Source: Candidatus Uhrbacteria bacterium (GTDB lineage Bacteria; Patescibacteriota; Patescibacteriia; UBA9934; GWF2-40-263). Taken from it: a stretch of 64,000 nucleotides of DNA. The translations under genes and the position numbers were made by a program. Below the pieces are notes generated by a model. It worked only from the letters and a program-made list of their open reading frames with translations. It was not told where the DNA came from and searched no databases. The first letter of the stretch is position 1. Each line of letters begins with the position of its first letter. This document shows, piece by piece, positions 12,904 to 18,189 of this stretch. The stretch is from NCBI GenBank assembly GCA_016205975.1, contig JACQSK010000021.1, positions 106,593-170,592 of the forward strand, written 5' to 3'.

Positions 12904-13056
12904 CTACTCAGCAGCTGGCATGTCGCCTTCTGCTGGAGCCACAGCTGGAGCTGCCTCTGGGGCAGCAGCCGCTCCGGCGCAGGTAGCACACTTTTGCTCT
13001 TCGTTGAGCGGGACGCCACTTGCTCCGCAAGCGACGCAAACACCTGATCCTTCCAT
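12904..13056 (-). CDS. small CxxC..CxxC zinc-ribbon-like protein (about 50 aa)
   Basis: Reverse-complement reading gives MEGSGVCVACGASGVPLNEEQKCATCAGAAAPEAAPAVAPAEGDMPAAE. Not in the >=60-aa ORF track. No clear RBS. Confidence 0.2.
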   Translation of the reverse strand: MEGSGVCVACGASGVPLNEEQKCATCAGAAAAPEAAPAVAPAEGDMPAAE

Positions 13057-13176
13057 AGTGATTTGCGGTTACGAATTAGCACGGGGAGTATACGTGGTTT
13101 GTTTCGATTAAGCAATACTTACTTCGTATTTTTTTTGGGGGGGGGTGCGGAAAGGGTTTTTCTTTTTCGTTTTTTG

Positions 13177-13345
13177 CAGAAGCGCATCCGTATTCGAGCT
13201 CATCTTCATAGGCGGGAGCCACTGCTCCCGCATTCGGAAGCGCATCCGCCTTCGAACGCGGCAGCAGTGGCTGCCGCCTATTCCTCCCGCTTCGGAAGCG
13301 GATGCACACACGCATTCGAACGCGGCAGCAGTGGCTGTCGCCTAT
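13177..13345 (+). repeat. three tandem ~60-bp units, each with an 8-bp-stem hairpin (gcggcagc-agtg-gctgccgc)
   Basis: Hairpins at about 13211-13231 (inverted orientation), 13258-13278 and 13322-13342. The third has a C>T change that keeps a G.U pair. Conserved flanks ggaagcgcatccg..ttcgaacgc. Confidence 0.6.
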
Positions 13346-13444
13346 GAACCTCGGGAGTGGCCTGAAGTCCTTGACCGAAATCCGTCTGTCGAGTAAGCTC
13401 AGCCCTCGCGTTTTCAAGACGCGATGCTCATTACAGGAGAAAAC

Positions 13445-14590
13445 ATGCCTCCGAAAAAGAGTCCGTCACCGGACCTTTGGATCCAGGATTTGAAGAGGAT
13501 GCTTGTTGAGCGAGAAGACGGGACCCGCTGTGGGGACTCCGACTGGGAAGAGGTCGTCAAGGGACTTCCCTATGAGAACGAGGCCGTGGGGGTCTCGTCT
13601 GATGATTGCGATGATCTCCTCCCCGAGGAGATCGGCTTCTCTGCGGAACGCCTTGTCCCTTATGTCCAGAAGCCCGTTGAGCTTTTCGCGAGCGACGCAC
13701 CCATCCTCGCGAGGCCGCGCAAAGCCGTCTTTCGTATCGTCTGGCAGCCACATTGGTCCGACGATGTGAAAACCCCTGATCGTCTCTTCGGCATCGACTG
13801 CGCTCTTGGGATCGAGCTCTCCCCACCGCTTCCCGCGTCTGCTCAGCACACGCGCATCCTCGATCCGGAGACCGGCGCGATCGTTGCAACTCTGGGCAGG
13901 CACAAGAACATCCTTTGGGTGTATGCGCAGCCTATCCACCTGCAGAATAGCGCTTTTCGCCTGAACCGGTACCGGGAGATTTTCGATGCGCTTATCACCA
14001 GGGTCATCCTCCTGCTCCCCGCGCCTGCTCTCTCGCCAGAGCAGTGGGTGCGAGAGCGCGCTCAAGCGAGGAGAGCCGTTCTTGATAGGACGTACAAAGC
14101 CTATCGGGTCCATCTCGAGTGGGAGAAAGTCGCGCTTGCGTCTGAGACCCTTATCGCGTCATTGGATCGTACCGATGAGGCCGTGTCCATCACGGACGAT
14201 ATTGAACACCTTGCCTGTGAGGTCGCAGCGTACAAGAAGCTCATAGAGCAATTCCGTGAAAAGACCGCAGCCGAGTTTGAGAAGATCCTGATGCGCCCCG
14301 ACGTTCTCTCGGCGCGCCTGTGGGGTTCGGTTCTGGTACTGGACACCCTGAAGGCTGGGTCCGTCTGGACGATCGTCATCAACCGCAACAAGGCAAGCGA
14401 TCCGATTCGCTGGTTCAAGCATGTGGAGGGCGGGCGCCAGGCGTACGCGCCGTCCTACTATCGGATGCTTCTCCCTCTTGTTGAGCTCCTCAGCAAGGGG
14501 GCATGGGAGACGTTGTTGAACGCCGCGATTCAGTCGATTGGAACCAAGCGCATCCAACCCCTCAACCCACCGACAGGAGAACCGACATGA
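13445..14590 (+). CDS. hypothetical protein, first gene of the JAB-E1-Ubl operon
   Basis: AGGAGA RBS then ATG. Stop overlaps the next start (ATGA). No recognisable domain by eye. Confidence 0.45.
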   Translation: MPPKKSPSPDLWIQDLKRMLVEREDGTRCGDSDWEEVVKGLPYENEAVGVSSDDCDDLLPEEIGFSAERLVPYVQKPVELFASDAPILARPRKAVFRIVWQPHWSDDVKTPDRLFGIDCALGIELSPPLPASAQHTRILDPETGAIVATLGRHKNILWVYAQPIHLQNSAFRLNRYREIFDALITRVILLLPAPALSPEQWVRERAQARRAVLDRTYKAYRVHLEWEKVALASETLIASLDRTDEAVSITDDIEHLACEVAAYKKLIEQFREKTAAEFEKILMRPDVLSARLWGSVLVLDTLKAGSVWTIVINRNKASDPIRWFKHVEGGRQAYAPSYYRMLLPLVELLSKGAWETLLNAAIQSIGTKRIQPLNPPTGEPT

Positions 14591-15315
14591 CCAAGCGCTT
14601 CAAGGCCTCTGCTCGCCTTATGACGAGGGCTTCGCAAACGACAAGTATGCGAGCGCTCGCACTTCCCCCCGAGGTCGAGTTCACCCAGCGCGCCATGGAG
14701 GACATGCGCATCCTGGTGGAGATCTGCGATGAGGAAGTAGGATGGTTGGGCACGGCCAAGCGCCTGGGCCGCAACTTCCTTGTGAGCGAGATTTTTCTGC
14801 CGTCTCAGCACGTCGGGCTGGCTCACACGACGATCACCAGCGCCGGACTTGAGCAGCTCATAGACGATCTCAAGCAGAAGGGGCGTCCGGGCGCGCTGGA
14901 CTCGATGCTTTTCTGGGGCCATTCCCATGCGGGCATGGAAGCCACGCCTTCACAGCAAGACGACCGCCAGATGGAAAAGTTCACGCGCCGCGCGCCCTGG
15001 TTCATCCGCGCGGTCCTGAACAAGCGCGGGCACATGCAGGTGGATGTGTACCTGTGTGATGAGGGCATGAGCTATCACAATGTGTCCTGGAGCGTCCGCG
15101 CTCCCATTCCCGCCAAGCGGCTGGCCTACTGGCAAGAGCGCGTTGCGGCATGCGTCCAGAAGGTGGAACCCCACATGGGGAGGATGCACGGACTGCCGGT
15201 GCACATGCGAAGGAGGGATGGCTTGGACCCCAAAGAGGAAGTCGATCCTGCGGAGCCGTTCCCGACTCAGGAGGAGTGGGAAGCCGCGCTCGCGAAACCC
15301 GGGAGGGTCAAGTGA
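14587..15315 (+). CDS. JAB/MPN (JAMM) metallopeptidase-domain protein
   Basis: JAMM signature in WGHSHAGMEATPSQQD (H-x-H-x7-S-x2-D) with an upstream Glu (VSEIF). AGGAGA RBS. Translationally coupled on both sides. Confidence 0.6.
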   Translation: MTKRFKASARLMTRASQTTSMRALALPPEVEFTQRAMEDMRILVEICDEEVGWLGTAKRLGRNFLVSEIFLPSQHVGLAHTTITSAGLEQLIDDLKQKGRPGALDSMLFWGHSHAGMEATPSQQDDRQMEKFTRRAPWFIRAVLNKRGHMQVDVYLCDEGMSYHNVSWSVRAPIPAKRLAYWQERVAACVQKVEPHMGRMHGLPVHMRRRDGLDPKEEVDPAEPFPTQEEWEAALAKPGRVK

Positions 15316-16004
15316 TCAACATCGCGCGGCATCACACCGTTTTCGACCCCAGGACCTTTGCGGGGAATCGGGTTGACGTGATCGGGGTTGGTGCGCTAGG
15401 ATCGCGACTGACCCTCGAGCTTGCCAGGCTTGGCATCGACGGCATCCACGTGTGGGACCCGGATACGGTCTCGGACGTGAACCTGGGCAACCAGGCTTTT
15501 GCCAAGCAGGACGTGGGCGTGAAGAAGGTCCATGCGCTCGCGCGTCTCGTCAAAGAGCACACCGGCGCCGCGCTGGTCACCCACGAAGAAGCGTGCCAGG
15601 GAGAACAGGAACTTGGGGAAGTCATCTTCCTCATGACCGACTCCCTCGCCTCGCGCAGGGAGGTCTTCCAGGCCGCCATACGGTTCAACCTCACGACCAA
15701 GCGGCTCATCGAAGCCAGGCTCGGGATCGATCAAGGACGGGCGTACTCGCTTGATCCAAACCAGGGCACCGAGGTCGAAGCCTACGCGCGGACGCTCAAT
15801 GGTGTAGCCAAGGCAGCCGTGAATTCCTGCGGCTCTCCGATCTCCGTCGGGGCCACGGCAGGCACGGCCGTCTCGATCGCCACGTGGATGTTCATCCGCT
15901 GGTGGGCCAGGGAACAGGACAAGACGACAGATGAACTGGAGAACGAGGTGATCTTCGCCCTGCGTCCCGTGATGGTCACGAGTCGCAGTTTTACCCGAGC
16001 GTGA
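15312..16004 (+). CDS. E1-like ThiF/MoeB-family adenylyltransferase (minimal, about 230 aa)
   Basis: VIGVGALGSRLTLELARLGIDGIHVWDPDTVSDVNLGNQ matches the ThiF nucleotide-binding GxGxxG...D.D.V..SNL.RQ pattern. GTG overlaps the upstream stop. GGGAGGG RBS. Confidence 0.65.
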   Translation: MINIARHHTVFDPRTFAGNRVDVIGVGALGSRLTLELARLGIDGIHVWDPDTVSDVNLGNQAFAKQDVGVKKVHALARLVKEHTGAALVTHEEACQGEQELGEVIFLMTDSLASRREVFQAAIRFNLTTKRLIEARLGIDQGRAYSLDPNQGTEVEAYARTLNGVAKAAVNSCGSPISVGATAGTAVSIATWMFIRWWAREQDKTTDELENEVIFALRPVMVTSRSFTRA

Positions 16005-16034
16005 GTGGCGATCACGAAAGTAAGGAGAAAGGCT

Positions 16035-16298
16035 ATGGCTAGCAAGGCCAAGAAGGGCAAAGAGGGCGTGAAGCAAGAAGGTGGCAAGATCAGCTTCCAG
16101 GTCTTCCCGGGCAAGCGTTGCCAGGTGGGCGTGGGTGAGGGGCAGGACGCCTACACCCTCTCGAAGCTCCTCGAGCAGGAGGGGTTCAAGGCCGACGAGA
16201 TCACGGTGAAGGTGAACGGGGAGGACGCGACCGACCTCGACCGCGTGCTCAAGAGTGGCGACAGCGTCGTCCTTCTGGAGAACGTGGAAGGCGGCTAG
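16035..16298 (+). CDS. ubiquitin-like beta-grasp protein (ThiS/MoaD-like) ending in Gly-Gly
   Basis: 87 aa, C-terminus ...ITVKVNGEDATDLDRVLKSGDSVVLLENVEGG*. Lys-rich N-terminal extension MASKAKKGKEG. AAGGAG RBS 6 nt upstream. Confidence 0.55.
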   Translation: MASKAKKGKEGVKQEGGKISFQVFPGKRCQVGVGEGQDAYTLSKLLEQEGFKADEITVKVNGEDATDLDRVLKSGDSVVLLENVEGG

Positions 16299-16376
16299 TC
16301 TCTCTCTTGCGACAAAACGGCGGGGCGCTCGTGGGACGATCCGCGAGGCCCCGTTTTTCCTTCAGGAGGAATGGTC

Positions 16377-17498
16377 ATGGAAGTTACCTTTGTTGGAACG
16401 ATGCCGTGGGAAAACCCGCAAGACACGCTCAAGTCGCTTGTGTGCAAGGAGCTCCTGCCCGTTGTCGGGAAGTCCGTCGTCATCCACTTCCCCCTGCAGC
16501 GCAACCAACCCGATAGCGTTGAACTCATGGACGCTGCGCGAGACACATCAGGAGCGTTCCACGTGTTCCTTCTGGGCAGGTTTCCCCCTTGGGATCGGAC
16601 ATTCTATGTGCCTTGGGAGCCGTATCGAGAGGCGCTGGGCGGATCGCTTGTTGGGTCCCCGATCTACGCGGAAAGGAATCGAAAGGTGCCGATGGGGGAG
16701 CAGGTCGGCGATGTCGTCTGCTTGCGCGTGCGCATGCAATACCGAGAAGATGCCTCCACTCAACTCTGGATGGATCGCATCTGTGATCTCGCGCAGCACC
16801 TGAAGAAAGGGGACAAGCAACCTTCCGGACAGCCTGGGAAGACGGCACGACAGATGGCGGAAGCCCTGGTGCCCTACCACTGGAAAGAGGCCGTACAGAC
16901 AAAGACGGAAAAGCTTCGATGTCTGCGAAAGAACAGAGGAGCATTGTTGGAGGCCTTCCTTCAGGCCACGCAAGAAGCTGAGCGTTTTGTGCAGAGCATC
17001 AGGGGTGAGGGGGCGGAGCGCGGCGCGTTGGAATGCCAGGAGGAGGTTGATCGTCTGTTCCAGCATCCCTTGTTCCAGGACGCGTGGTGCGTGTCTAACG
17101 GTAGTCCGTTGGGCTTCGGCGAAACCCCTGTGCTGTTGGTCAGGACAAAGGAAATCCTCGTGAGCATGAAGAGAGGGGATGGAGGCGTCGAGCGTCGCCG
17201 GATCGGACGATTCGAAATTCGCATTCCGTTCGTTCAGGATCACAACTGGGGCAACAACGTCCACTTCAGGAATCTTGACCGCTTGGTCGCCAACCAGCAA
17301 GGGCCGCACATCGACGATCAGGGTTGGCCGTGTTTTGGGACAGGAGAGCAGATCGTGGACGGCCTCTTTAAGGAAGGGCGGCTGGCCGAGCTCGTGGAGT
17401 TCTGCCTGCACTACCTCACGCGGGTCAATACCGACGACGGCTGGGGGAAGAACATTCATGAATGGCCTTTGGTGGAAGACACTCCCACCGAGGGATAA
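16377..17498 (+). CDS. hypothetical protein, last gene of the operon (weak E2-like H..(8)..C motif, unconfirmed)
   Basis: AGGAGG RBS. Segment GPHIDDQGWPCFGTG loosely resembles a UBC HPN...G.xC active-site stretch. This is inference only. Confidence 0.4.
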   Translation: MEVTFVGTMPWENPQDTLKSLVCKELLPVVGKSVVIHFPLQRNQPDSVELMDAARDTSGAFHVFLLGRFPPWDRTFYVPWEPYREALGGSLVGSPIYAERNRKVPMGEQVGDVVCLRVRMQYREDASTQLWMDRICDLAQHLKKGDKQPSGQPGKTARQMAEALVPYHWKEAVQTKTEKLRCLRKNRGALLEAFLQATQEAERFVQSIRGEGAERGALECQEEVDRLFQHPLFQDAWCVSNGSPLGFGETPVLLVRTKEILVSMKRGDGGVERRRIGRFEIRIPFVQDHNWGNNVHFRNLDRLVANQQGPHIDDQGWPCFGTGEQIVDGLFKEGRLAELVEFCLHYLTRVNTDDGWGKNIHEWPLVEDTPTEG

Positions 17499-17550
17499 CG
17501 CACACGGTCGCACAGCGGCCGTGTTTTTCTTTTTCGTTTTTTGAAGTAAG

Positions 17551-18045
17551 ATGGACGGCGTTATGCAGCAAGGACGCATCATCATGGGGCTTGATCCTGG
17601 CTACGGGCGCATGGGGTTTGGCGTCATTTATGTTGAGGGGTCTGGGATGGAGCTCGTGGACTATGGGGTCATCACCACGGTGAGCGGGGACGCGTTTGAG
17701 AGCCGCCTGCTTCATATCGGCAACGACCTGCACGATCTGTTCGCCCATCACCTGCCTGACGCCGTGGCGATCGAAAAACTTTTTTTCGGGAAGAGCTCAT
17801 CGACCGCGATGAATGTCGCGCACGCGCGCGGCGTGGCGATGCTCATGGCGGCGCAAGCCGTGTGTCCCGTCTTTGAGTTCACACCAGCTCAGATCAAGAA
17901 GGCACTCACCGGCGACGGCAAGGCTCCCAAGCTCGCCATGCAAAAAATGGTGGCAACGCTCCTGAGTCTCCCCAAGATCCCCAAGCCCGACGACGCCGCC
18001 GACGCGCTCGCGGTTGCGATGACGGCGAGTACGAAGAGATGGTAA
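17551..18045 (+). CDS. ruvC: crossover junction endodeoxyribonuclease RuvC (Holliday junction resolvase)
   Basis: IIMGLDPGYGRMGFGVI, ELVDYGVITT and DAVAIEKLFFGKSSSTAMNVAHARGV are characteristic RuvC motifs. Length 164 aa. True start may be a downstream ATG. Confidence 0.7.
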   Translation: MDGVMQQGRIIMGLDPGYGRMGFGVIYVEGSGMELVDYGVITTVSGDAFESRLLHIGNDLHDLFAHHLPDAVAIEKLFFGKSSSTAMNVAHARGVAMLMAAQAVCPVFEFTPAQIKKALTGDGKAPKLAMQKMVATLLSLPKIPKPDDAADALAVAMTASTKRW

Positions 18046-18099: not shown

Positions 18100-18189
18100 T
18101 GGAGCGGGTAGCGGGAGTCGAACCCTCTGGTAACCTCAATGATCTCCCAGGAAAGATCGCCGATTCCGCTCAACCTCGCGAAAACCCGC
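18100..18189 (-). tRNA. atypical tRNA-like element (about 90 nt, encoded CCA, discriminator U)
   Basis: Minus-strand RNA ends ...GAGGGUUCGACUCCCGCUACCCGCUCCA. 7-bp acceptor pairing of GCGGGUU with UACCCGC. Candidate anticodon hairpin GAUCU/AGAUC with an 8-nt loop. D-arm and variable region are non-canonical. Coordinates +/-2. Confidence 0.3.

What the first reader, a model, noticed from the sequence alone, without database searches (positions are those of the whole stretch)
13177..17498. Phage/island-borne JAB-E1-Ubl(GG) operon with two unknown flanking genes
Four translationally coupled genes encode a JAMM peptidase (HSHx7SxxD), a minimal ThiF-type E1 and a ThiS/MoaD-like beta-grasp protein ending in Gly-Gly. 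They are bracketed by 381-aa and 375-aa proteins of unknown function, and the operon ends just upstream of ruvC. This matches bacterial ubiquitin-like conjugation operons (Iyer/Burroughs/Aravind E1-Ubl-JAB systems; the recently described Bil/Bub anti-phage and phage-encoded systems). The alternative is a CysO/QbsE-type sulfur-carrier pathway, but no biosynthetic partner (CysM, ThiG, MoaE) is present. The mobile-element context, Lys-rich Ubl N-terminus and absence of a clear E2 (unless one of the flanking proteins is a divergent E2) make it a candidate for an undescribed conjugation or defence system.
Basis: partly seen in the sequence, partly recalled or inferred. Interest (0 to 1): 0.85.

Follow-up and report, generated by a model that had tools for sequence, protein, structure and literature searches.

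The report
Ubiquitin-like tagging operon with hidden E2
A five-gene operon in a tiny groundwater bacterium (Candidatus Uhrbacteria) encodes what looks like a complete ubiquitin-style protein-tagging machine. The two "unknown" flanking genes turn out to be a very divergent E2 enzyme and its catalytically dead twin, from a family not filed under any described bacterial ubiquitin-like system.

Summary
Five co-directional genes (13445-17498) sit behind one conserved promoter and leader, and end at a conserved terminator just before ruvC.

- **Core enzymes:** the JAMM motif, a minimal 230-aa ThiF-type E1 and an 87-aa ThiS-like protein ending in Gly-Gly are all confirmed.
- **5' unknown (P1):** it is a paralogue with the same N-terminal module and coiled coil. 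Its E2-like domain has lost the His/Cys loop, so it resembles a UEV-type variant.
- **Mobile-element claim:** "phage/island-borne" is not supported for this locus. There are no mobility genes, the same locus lies between rpoC and ruvC in sister lineages, and there are no plasmid matches.
- **Wider family:** the operon belongs to a larger family (E2-like x1-6, JAB, E1, Ubl) seen in about 45 metagenome and huge-phage-like contigs. It is absent from Pfam and PADLOC and differs in architecture from Bil, Bub, CBASS and classes 6a-6e.
- **Mechanism and role:** the most likely mechanism is a thioester E1 to E2 to lysine cascade reversed by the JAB peptidase. The biological role (phage conflict or endogenous regulation) remains open.

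The parts
13156..13179 (+). Left copy of a 24-nt direct repeat, GTTTTTCTTTTTCGTTTTTTGCAG
   Evidence: There are exactly two copies in the 64-kb window against 0 expected. Similarity does not extend beyond the 24 nt. Its meaning is unresolved.
13177..13348 (.). Lineage-specific palindromic repeat element: three 58-64-nt units that form a long hairpin
   Evidence: Repeat families D1 and I1/I3. The stretch 13200-13348 folds at -91.9 kcal/mol, z -9.7. It is absent from the orthologous spacers of L001, L005 and L006. No Rfam family matches.
13371..13399 (+). Promoter-like element: TTGACC (13371-13376), 17-nt spacer, TAAGCT (13394-13399)
   Evidence: TTGAC and TAA(G/A)CT are invariant in all four lineages, although the proteins are only 39-67% identical (alignment A3). 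The simple consensus scan does not flag it, because the -10 matches only 3 of 6 positions. Promoter function is inferred.
13400..13444 (+). Conserved 5' leader: hairpin TCGCG-loop-CGCGA (13406-13424), then GCTCATTACAGGAG with the Shine-Dalgarno AGGAG at 13435-13439
   Evidence: The stem and downstream leader are invariant while the loop varies in sequence and length across four lineages. The hairpin is predicted in all four, with z from -1.2 to -3.3. A regulatory role is inferred.
13445..14590 (+). P1: non-catalytic paralogue of the E2-like protein (N-terminal module at residues ~61-160, coiled coil at ~200-290, degenerate E2-like domain lacking His/Cys)
   Evidence: An NTD profile built without any Uhrbacteria sequence scores 14.9-31 bits on the four P1 orthologues, against a best of 5.4 bits in 500 shuffles. 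hhalign of P1 residues 262-381 against the 153-sequence E2-like alignment gives probability 88%, E 2.8e-6 over 101 columns, with the PH..G.xC loop deleted. Only 3 homologues exist among 5.8 billion proteins.
14587..15315 (+). JAB/JAMM metallopeptidase (242 aa), 4-nt overlap with P1
   Evidence: Prok-JAB E 3e-4, below cut-off. E50, H112, H114, S122 and D125 are conserved in at least 29 of 31 family members. phmmer gives E 1e-23 to 1e-25 against the JAB genes of the distant operons L009 and L010.
15312..16004 (+). Minimal E1-like adenylating enzyme (230 aa), 4-nt overlap with JAB
   Evidence: ThiF 1.9e-15. It falls far below every NCBIfam equivalog cut-off. GxGxxG, D49, D51, N57, N60, Q61, K72, D110, R115 and Cys173 are invariant in 32-33 of 33 family members. 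There is no rhodanese or Zn-ribbon extension. It is equally distant from UBA3, ThiF, MccB and MoeB in the PDB.
16035..16298 (+). Ubiquitin-like beta-grasp protein (87 aa) with a Lys-rich N-terminal tail and C-terminal Gly-Gly
   Evidence: ThiS 4e-7. The C-terminus ...DSVVLLENVEGG* is identical in all four lineages.
16377..17498 (+). P5: E2-like conjugating enzyme. N-terminal module, helical linker, and a UBC-like domain (17043-17495) with Cys321 (codon 17331-17333, numbered from the ORF start at 16371)
17502..17534 (+). Intrinsic terminator of the operon (10-bp stem plus T-run)
   Evidence: Terminator scan. Fold -17.2 kcal/mol, z -4.2. The hairpin plus T-tract is conserved in all four lineages.
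17523..17546 (+). Right copy of the 24-nt direct repeat, GTTTTTCTTTTTCGTTTTTTGAAG
   Evidence: Its first 13 nt are the conserved terminator T-tract.
17584..18045 (+). ruvC, the neighbour gene. It is not shown to be part of the system
   Evidence: RuvC Pfam 2.8e-44; NCBIfam equivalog 198 bits against a cut-off of 163. It is separated from P5 by the terminator and is 85-96% identical among the four lineages.

Best explanation
The operon encodes a self-contained ubiquitin-like protein conjugation and deconjugation system.

**Proposed steps (all inferred from homology).**
1. The 230-aa E1 adenylates the C-terminal Gly-Gly of the 87-aa Ubl.
2. The E1 takes the Ubl as a thioester on its invariant crossover-loop Cys173.
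3. The Ubl passes to Cys321 of the UBC-like domain of P5, the E2.
4. P5 transfers the Ubl to lysines of target proteins.

Target choice would be set by the fast-evolving N-terminal modules of P5 and of P1. P1 is a Cys-less paralogue that probably pairs with P5 through the coiled coils, as a UEV-type variant does.

The JAMM peptidase removes the Ubl from targets. In relatives with tandem or C-terminally extended Ubls it would also mature the precursor.

**What is shown.** Gene content, catalytic-residue conservation, the E2-like fold assignment of P5, the paralogy of P1, the operon signals, and membership of a larger operon family.

**What is inferred.** Every chemical step, the P1-P5 pairing and the targets.

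**Biological role.** I lean slightly towards a phage-host conflict function (about 45%) over endogenous regulation (about 35%).
For: **Core components.** JAB, E1 and Ubl are identified with intact catalytic motifs.

**P5 as an E2.**
- The domain model has pLDDT 90.9.
- hhalign against human E2s gives E 7e-5 over 113 columns with catalytic Cys aligned on Cys.
- Sub-threshold hits point the same way: UbcH7 in the PDB and UQ_con in Pfam.
- His313 and Cys321 are conserved in 151 and 150 of 153 domains.

**P1 as a paralogue.** It shares the N-terminal module and an E2-like domain with the catalytic loop deleted.

**E1.** Cys173 is present in 32 of 33 family E1s.

**Co-occurrence.** E2-like, JAB, E1 and Ubl occur together in essentially every related locus with enough flank. 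An N-only protein sits next to an N+E2 protein in L046 in the same gene order.

**Against a biosynthetic role.** There is no rhodanese domain, no Zn motif and no biosynthetic partner.

**For a conflict role.**
- P1 and P5 are 39-68% identical between lineages whose RuvC is 85-96% identical.
- Only 2 of 185,579 GTDB species carry the P5 type.
- E2-like genes form arrays of up to 6 domains.
- Relatives occur on 110-207-kb IMG/VR contigs.
Against: **Weak points in the E2 call.**
- Foldseek against the PDB gave no significant hit; the best was Ube2T at E 0.5.
- No Pfam E2 family, including Prok-E2_A to E, matches.

**Other gaps.**
- The full-length P5 model is poor, pLDDT 48.6, and P1 could not be modelled.
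- No biochemical evidence exists.

**Against a conflict role.**
- No defence genes or CapW/CapH-CapP-type regulators lie nearby.
- Neighbours here and in 32 related loci are housekeeping or DNA-metabolism genes.
- No toxin or effector domain is present.
Confidence: 0.72

Rival explanations
1. The cascade is the same, but its role is endogenous regulation rather than defence. The Ubl would be attached to the bacterium's own proteins, or in phage copies to replication and recombination proteins. It could, for example, tune DNA repair or recombination or mark proteins for turnover, like archaeal SAMPylation or eukaryotic PCNA modification by an E2-UEV pair.
For: - The operon has its own conserved promoter, leader and terminator among core genes (rpoBC, ruvC).
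- Neighbours of 32 related loci are rich in DNA-metabolism genes: DnaB, SbcC, helicases, SSB, RecA/UvsX, DprA, FtsK and topoisomerase.
- In L012 the operon sits between SbcD-like and SbcC-like genes.
- In Flavobacterium phage FpV4 a distant ThiF/JAB/Ubl-like cluster lies in the replication module next to exonuclease VIII.
- No defence neighbours were seen.
Against: - ruvC is separated by a strong terminator.
- The four lineages are close relatives (RuvC 85-96% identical), so the synteny carries little functional weight.
- No single neighbour recurs; the maximum is 2 of 121.
- The distribution is very patchy, and P1 and P5 diverge fast. Both are unusual for a housekeeping regulator.
Confidence: 0.35
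2. A sulfur-carrier pathway of the ThiS/MoaD/CysO/QbsE type. E1 adenylates the beta-grasp protein, which is converted to a thiocarboxylate for cofactor or amino-acid biosynthesis, and the JAB peptidase only matures it.
For: The best named E1 hits are ThiF models (52.9 bits) and the Ubl hits ThiS/MoaD. JAB plus E1 plus ThiS-like proteins are known in the CysO and QbsE pathways (established knowledge).
Against: - All ThiF/MoeB/MoeZ scores are far below the curated cut-offs, for example 52.9 against 159.
- The E1 has no rhodanese domain or Zn-binding CxxC pairs.
- No ThiG, MoaE, CysM or other biosynthetic partner is present in any of the loci.
- The Ubl already ends in Gly-Gly, so no maturation is needed.
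- The pathway would leave unexplained two large proteins with an E2-like domain and an invariant Cys that always travel with the E1.
Confidence: 0.04
3. An E2-independent, SAMP/UbaA- or Urm1-like conjugation system. E1 alone drives attachment, and P1 and P5 are scaffolds, substrates or unrelated enzymes whose His/Cys pair has another function.
For: - Archaeal SAMPylation needs only an E1 (established knowledge).
- Foldseek does not confirm the E2 fold.
- No E2 Pfam family matches.
Against: - His and Cys are conserved in about 98% of 153 domains.
- The domain is strictly linked to E1, JAB and Ubl.
- The UbaA model scores 24 bits against a cut-off of 450.
Confidence: 0.1

Closest known systems
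Bil (BilABCD; Iyer 2006 classes 6C/6D): bacterial ISG15-like antiphage system
   Same: It has four separate components: a Ubl, an E2 with a catalytic Cys, a JAB deubiquitinase and an E1. It has no E3, and the E2 is thought to pick targets directly (bioRxiv 10.1101/2024.11.21.623953 section 5; 10.1101/2023.09.26.559546).
   Different: - The Bil E1 is a large IAD-AAD-CYS multidomain protein. Here the E1 is a single 230-aa adenylation domain.
- The Bil E2 is the CEHH or 6D type, which lacks the classical upstream His. Here His precedes Cys by 8 residues, as in classical E2s.
- P5 also carries N-terminal modules and a coiled coil, and comes with a Cys-less paralogue.
- No PADLOC model other than the generic E1 core matches.
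Bub (6E / DUF6527 operons)
   Different: - Bub uses Ubl-E2 and JAB-E1 fusions plus the serine protease BubE (DUF6527).
- Bub works through oxyester (Ser) intermediates and its E1 lacks a catalytic Cys (10.1101/2024.11.21.623953).
- Here the genes are separate, there is no DUF6527 hit, and Cys is invariant in both E1 and E2.
CBASS type II Cap2/Cap3
   Different: - Cap2 is an E1-E2 fusion that conjugates a CD-NTase, not a Ubl.
- No CD-NTase or effector is present here.
- The hits cover only about 70 residues of the nucleotide-binding core.
Eukaryotic E2-UEV pairs (e.g. Ubc13-Mms2)
   Same: An active UBC-fold enzyme is encoded with a paralogue that keeps the fold but lacks the catalytic Cys. Eukaryotic E2s are the best structural matches, and the His...Cys order is classical.
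   Different: - Sequence identity is only about 12-15%.
- His to Cys spacing is 8 residues rather than 10.
- Extra N-terminal modules and a coiled coil are present.
- Heterodimerisation is only inferred.
Archaeal SAMP/UbaA/HvJAMM1 and sulfur-carrier ThiS-ThiF / MoaD-MoeB / CysO-MoeZ-Mec+
   Same: A ThiS/MoaD-like beta-grasp protein ending in Gly-Gly, a single-domain E1-like adenylase with a crossover-loop Cys, and a JAMM peptidase.
   Different: - Those systems have no E2.
- Their E1s have Zn motifs and/or rhodanese domains and biosynthetic partners.
- All curated models score far below cut-off here.

Membership tests
Bacterial Ubl-conjugation operons in the broad sense (E1 + E2 + Ubl + JAB) | E1-like adenylation domain with intact nucleotide-binding and catalytic residues | tested here: met
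   ThiF 1.9e-15. GxGxxG, D49, K72, D110, R115 and C173 are invariant in the family.
Bacterial Ubl-conjugation operons in the broad sense (E1 + E2 + Ubl + JAB) | Beta-grasp Ubl with a C-terminal glycine available for adenylation | tested here: met
   ThiS 4e-7. It ends ...VEGG* in all four lineages.
Bacterial Ubl-conjugation operons in the broad sense (E1 + E2 + Ubl + JAB) | UBC-fold E2 with a conserved catalytic Cys | tested here: met
Bacterial Ubl-conjugation operons in the broad sense (E1 + E2 + Ubl + JAB) | JAMM peptidase with E...HxH...S..D | tested here: met
   The motif is present and conserved. The Pfam score is below cut-off.
Bacterial Ubl-conjugation operons in the broad sense (E1 + E2 + Ubl + JAB) | Formation of Ubl-lysine isopeptide conjugates | not testable with these tools
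   This needs biochemistry and mass spectrometry.
Bil (BilABCD) | [quoted passage not shown] | tested here: not met
   The E1 is 230 aa with a single ThiF domain. The Bil architecture is as described in 10.1101/2024.11.21.623953.
Bil (BilABCD) | CEHH / 6D-type E2 (no His upstream of the catalytic Cys) | tested here: not met
   The conserved His lies 8 residues upstream of Cys. The 6d description is in PMC1779556.
Bub (6E) | DUF6527 serine protease BubE | tested here: not met
   None of the five proteins has a Pfam hit to DUF6527 at E <= 1.
Bub (6E) | Ubl-E2 and JAB-E1 (or E2-E1) fusions; E1 and E2 lack a catalytic Cys (oxyester chemistry) | tested here: not met
   The genes are separate. Cys is invariant in E1 and E2.
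CBASS type II (Cap2/Cap3) | E1-E2 fusion next to a CD-NTase and an effector | tested here: not met
   Only the E1 core hits Cap2 models, at 46 bits over about 70 residues. No CD-NTase or effector is in the operon.
PRTRC system | PRTRC ThiF family protein (TIGR03736) with ParB-related partners | tested here: not met
   40 bits against a cut-off of 144.75. There is no ParB in the operon.
ThiF/MoeB/MoeZ sulfur-carrier pathways | E1 reaches the curated equivalog score, and a biosynthetic partner (ThiG, MoaE, CysM) or rhodanese domain is present | tested here: not met
   The best score is 52.9 bits against 159. No partner appears in any locus.
Archaeal SAMP/UbaA | UbaA-type E1 and SAMP equivalogs | tested here: not met
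   UbaA scores 24 bits against 450; SAMP1 scores 15.4 against 60.

The most novel reading that the evidence does not exclude
This is the founding example of an unrecognised family of prokaryotic and phage ubiquitination-like systems.
- It would be built on a classical-type (His...Cys) E2 paired with a Cys-less E2 variant, a minimal Cys-bearing E1, a JAB and a Ubl.
- It would be shared between CPR bacteria and huge phages.
- Its targets would be DNA replication, recombination or repair proteins rather than phage structural proteins. That would make it a prokaryotic counterpart of E2-UEV signalling in eukaryotic DNA-damage tolerance.
Probability: 0.15. Interest if true: 0.85.

Novelty: new variant of a known kind. 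Interest (0 to 1): 0.62.

Why it matters
Bacterial ubiquitin-like conjugation is a young field (CBASS Cap2, Bil, Bub), and every characterised system comes from cultivable Proteobacteria-type genomes.

This locus adds three things:
- a complete E1/E2/E2-variant/Ubl/JAB set in a CPR (Patescibacteria) bacterium with a reduced genome;
- an E2 family of about 700 cluster representatives that is invisible to Pfam and PADLOC, yet keeps the classical His...Cys layout and matches eukaryotic E2s better than known bacterial ones;
- an E2 plus inactive-E2 pairing and modular N-terminal repeats that suggest how target specificity can be built without an E3.

If the chemistry is confirmed, it widens the known diversity of ubiquitination-like systems. 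It also gives a small, five-gene cassette of 4.1 kb that can be tested in E. coli.

Tried and rejected
1. **Circular or tandem cassette.** The Logan contig L004 has a 375-aa gene at both ends. I rejected this idea because the first one is a truncated rpoC whose downstream spacer is identical to that of L001.
2. **The 24-nt direct repeat as a conserved att or regulatory site.** It is not conserved. It is absent from L001, L005 and L006, where only the terminator T-tract is shared. It stays unexplained.
3. **Direct P1 against P5 comparison.** BLASTP and hhalign on 4-sequence profiles found nothing. The relationship emerged only with family-wide profiles.
4. **Searches with the P5 domain that gave nothing useful.**
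   - phmmer of P5 against the PDB gave only spurious DARPin similarity to the 'LxxVNxxDxxG' motif.
   - The third homologous-protein search, with the domain alignment A4, returned nothing.
   - Foldseek against afdb50 was unavailable.
   - Foldseek against the PDB was not significant.
   - tblastn of the P5 domain against GenBank phages gave no match.
5. **Full-length AF2 model of P5.** The 4-sequence alignment was too shallow, giving pLDDT 48.6.
6. **Rfam.** Nothing reached gathering score in the window. The leader and palindrome region gave only chance hairpin hits.
7. **Exact-sequence look-ups.** My first start choices for P5 and RuvC were not on record.
8. **Functional inference from ruvC synteny.** I discounted it because RuvC is 85-96% identical among the lineages and a terminator intervenes.

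Full report
**Observation**

The stretch 13445-17498 holds five + strand genes.
- P1: 13445-14590, 381 aa
- JAB: 14587-15315, 242 aa
- E1: 15312-16004, 230 aa
- Ubl: 16035-16298, 87 aa
- P5: 16377-17498, 373 aa
- ruvC follows.

Independent gene calls on Logan contigs of the same strain give exactly these boundaries. P1/JAB and JAB/E1 overlap by 4 nt. The Ubl follows E1 after 30 nt and P5 follows the Ubl after 78 nt.

- E1 hits ThiF at 1.9e-15.
- The Ubl hits ThiS at 4e-7 and ends ...NVEGG.
- The JAB carries E50 and H112-x-H114-x7-S122-x2-D125. Pfam Prok-JAB scores only 21 bits, below the cut-off of 25.
- P1 and P5 match nothing in Pfam, NCBIfam, PHROGs or PADLOC.

**Source and context**

P5 and P1 are 100% identical to hypothetical proteins HY631_04310 and HY631_04290 of a Candidatus Uhrbacteria (CPR) genome. 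Among 5.8 billion proteins, P5 has only four close homologues and P1 has three. They come from three other Uhrbacteria-type lineages.

The encoding contigs show the same five genes followed by ruvC every time. In L001/L008 the cassette lies directly after rpoB-rpoC, and L006 shares the same rpoC terminator upstream. A scan of one genome for each of 185,579 species found only two carriers, both Uhrbacteria.

Flanking ORFs in the window have no integrase, transposase or phage families. Neither E1 nor the P5 domain matches any of 72,556 plasmids. Local G+C (58-61%) equals that of the surrounding 20 kb. "Phage/island-borne" is therefore not supported for this locus.

The synteny is also shallow. 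RuvC is 85-96% identical among the four lineages, against these values for the cassette:
- E1: 76-84%
- Ubl: 61-71%
- JAB: 56-62%
- P5: 46-68%
- P1: 39-67%

So the hosts are close relatives, the link to ruvC carries little functional weight, and P1 and P5 evolve several times faster than a core gene.

**Operon signals**

Upstream of P1, all four lineages keep the following despite the protein divergence:
- TTGAC, a 17-18-nt spacer, then TAA(G/A)CT;
- a leader with an invariant TCGCG...CGCGA stem around a variable loop;
- GCTCATTACAGGAG.

After P5 all four keep a GC-rich hairpin and T-run (window 17502-17534; -17.2 kcal/mol, z -4.2). The cassette is thus an autonomous transcription unit. Promoter and leader function are inferred from conservation only.

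**P5 is a divergent E2**

A profile of the four P5 orthologues, run against 1.84 billion representatives, found 695 proteins at E <= 1e-3. Nearly all match through residues ~273-372. Ten of them have no Pfam domain.

In 153 domain copies these residues are conserved:
- G279: 153 of 153
- P312-H313: 151
- C321: 150
- N301: 147
- D356: 149

The domain modelled with 33 sequences reaches pLDDT 90.9. Its layout is helix, five to six strands, the His/Cys loop, then three helices.

Sub-threshold sequence hits point the same way: UbcH7 at E 0.19 and UQ_con at best E 0.021 in 2 of 33 members. Against this, Foldseek found nothing significant in the PDB, and none of the Pfam E2 families matches. I put the E2 assignment at about 80-85%.

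**P1 is its inactive paralogue**

The N-terminal ~100 residues of P5 form a module that recurs one to three times in family members. A profile of this module, iterated on a database from which all Uhrbacteria sequences were removed, scores 31.0, 20.5, 19.6 and 14.9 bits on residues ~61-160 of the four P1 orthologues. The best of 500 shuffled P1 sequences scores 5.4 bits.

P1 also has a central coiled coil. Its last 120 residues align to the 153-sequence E2-like profile (local hhalign probability 88%, E 2.8e-6, 101 columns). The His...Cys loop is deleted.

An analogous N-only protein sits beside an N+E2 protein in the unrelated locus L046, in the same order JAB-E1-[N-only]-Ubl-[N+E2]. Many other loci carry two E2-like genes in tandem.

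**A wider operon family**

The E1 is well conserved. Distant operons on L009 and L010 give phmmer E values of 1e-57 to 1e-67. That allowed 63 loci to be fetched from IMG/VR and JGI metagenomes.

Wherever flanks suffice, the E1 sits with this JAB subtype, one to six E2-like domains and usually a Ubl. In the family:
- E1 Cys173 and the nucleotide and Mg ligands are invariant;
- the JAMM residues are conserved;
- the Ubl ends in Gly-Asn (GN*, GNC*, GNE*) or is a tandem repeat with GN|x junctions, whereas the Uhrbacteria Ubl ends Gly-Gly.

Neighbours of 32 non-redundant loci show no recurrent partner and no defence genes. They are housekeeping genes and many DNA-metabolism genes. In the large IMG/VR contigs they include ThyX, an Apyc1-like MBL, RlaP and SbcCD.

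Cultured phages hold only distant ThiF-like relatives (28-30% identity). In Flavobacterium phage FpV4 the ThiF-like gene sits with a JAMM protein and a Ubl-like protein in the replication module.

**Comparison with known systems**

- *Iyer et al. 2006, classes 6a-6e* (PMC1779556). These comprise E2-E1-JAB triple fusions, E2-E1 fusions, 6d with an E2 lacking the upstream His, and 6e with polyUbl plus an inactive E2 plus a JAB-E1 fusion.
- *Bil*. It has a multidomain IAD-AAD-CYS E1 and a CEHH-type E2.
- *Bub*. It has Ubl-E2 and JAB-E1 fusions plus DUF6527, and works through oxyesters with no E1 Cys (10.1101/2024.11.21.623953; 10.1101/2023.09.26.559546).

None of these architectures fits. Here the genes are separate, the E1 is a bare 230-aa domain with an invariant Cys, and the E2 has the classical His-before-Cys order plus N-terminal modules and a dead paralogue.

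Curated models for ThiF, MoeB, MoeZ, UbaA, PRTRC and the 6A-MBL Cap2 protein all score far below cut-off. PADLOC hits are confined to about 70 residues of the nucleotide-binding core. Five literature searches found no description of such a system in CPR bacteria or huge phages. That is absence from the held library, not proof of novelty.

**Mechanism and role**

The parts list, with every catalytic residue intact, argues for a thioester cascade:
1. E1 adenylates the Ubl Gly-Gly.
2. The Ubl moves to E1 Cys173.
3. It moves to P5 Cys321.
4. It is transferred to a target lysine.

The JAB reverses the modification, and in relatives it would mature the precursor. P1 probably pairs with P5 through the coiled coils and contributes a second target-binding module. 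All of these steps are inferred.

A sulfur-carrier role is unlikely. There is no rhodanese domain, no Zn motif and no biosynthetic partner, the Ubl is already mature, and an E2 is always present.

The biological role is open.
- For phage-host conflict, as with every characterised bacterial relative: fast-evolving specificity proteins, an extremely patchy distribution, E2 arrays, relatives on huge-phage-like contigs, and a 24-nt direct repeat around the cassette.
- For endogenous regulation: the housekeeping and DNA-metabolism neighbourhoods, the lack of defence neighbours or known defence regulators, and the conserved dedicated leader.

**Verdict**

This is a new variant, probably a new family, of bacterial ubiquitin-like conjugation systems. 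It has moderate to high interest and can be tested directly by heterologous reconstitution.

Noticed in passing
window 13156-13179 and 17523-17546: A 24-nt direct repeat (23 of 24 identical) brackets the whole cassette, 4367 bp apart. There are only two copies in 64 kb against 0 expected. It is not present in sister lineages, and no integrase lies inside. It may be the footprint of a rearrangement or insertion.
   Followed up: partly
window 13177-13348: Three 58-64-nt repeat units form a 149-nt near-perfect hairpin (-91.9 kcal/mol, z -9.7) between the left repeat and the promoter. It is lineage-specific and MITE/REP-like. Four independent Logan contigs of the same strain break 300-430 nt upstream of P1.
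   Followed up: partly
window 13129-13145: A homopolymer junction of T8 followed by G9 lies just upstream of the left repeat. It could be a slippage or assembly-break site.
   Followed up: no
window 13400-13444 (and L001 7011-7055, L005 194-238, L006 72-116): The 5' leader is highly conserved, with an invariant 5-8-bp stem, a variable loop and possible pairing of the 5' end with the Shine-Dalgarno. Its nucleotide conservation far exceeds that of the coding regions.
   Followed up: partly
window 12904-13056 (- strand): A 50-aa ORF with two CxxC pairs (zinc-ribbon-like) and an Ala/Pro-rich tail lies in the spacer upstream of the operon.
   Followed up: no
window 18100-18189 (- strand): ARAGORN calls a 90-nt tRNA-Arg(GCG) just after ruvC, but Rfam finds no tRNA at gathering score anywhere in the window. 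It may contain an intron or be a false call.
   Followed up: no
window 1-22000 versus 30000-58000: G+C rises from about 58-64% to 70-76% within one contig of a CPR genome. The high-GC part encodes large MopE/FG-GAP/PKD repeat proteins.
   Followed up: no
L046 9087-9440, L056 7746-8030, L011 7705-7920, L009 12043-12318, L010 6689-7195: In the wider family the Ubl ends in Gly-Asn (sometimes followed by one residue) or is a tandem di-Ubl with GN|x junctions, not Gly-Gly. Either the C-terminus is unusual or JAB trimming is obligatory.
   Followed up: partly
L012 3646-10363; L013 447-7699: On 164-179-kb IMG/VR contigs the E2-like/JAB/E1 genes sit between or next to SbcD-like and SbcC-like nuclease genes.
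   Followed up: partly
L074 (Flavobacterium phage FpV4) 1607-5618: A cultured phage has a distant cluster in its replication module. It comprises gp53, with an N-terminal Ubl-like domain reaching ...KSGG and then a long tail; gp51, with a JAMM motif; and gp50, ThiF-like and annotated 'thiamine biosynthesis protein'.
   Followed up: partly
L047 2-9960: One metagenome locus carries six E2-like domains in five or six genes and two JAB genes around a single E1 and Ubl. This is an array-like expansion of the specificity component.
   Followed up: no
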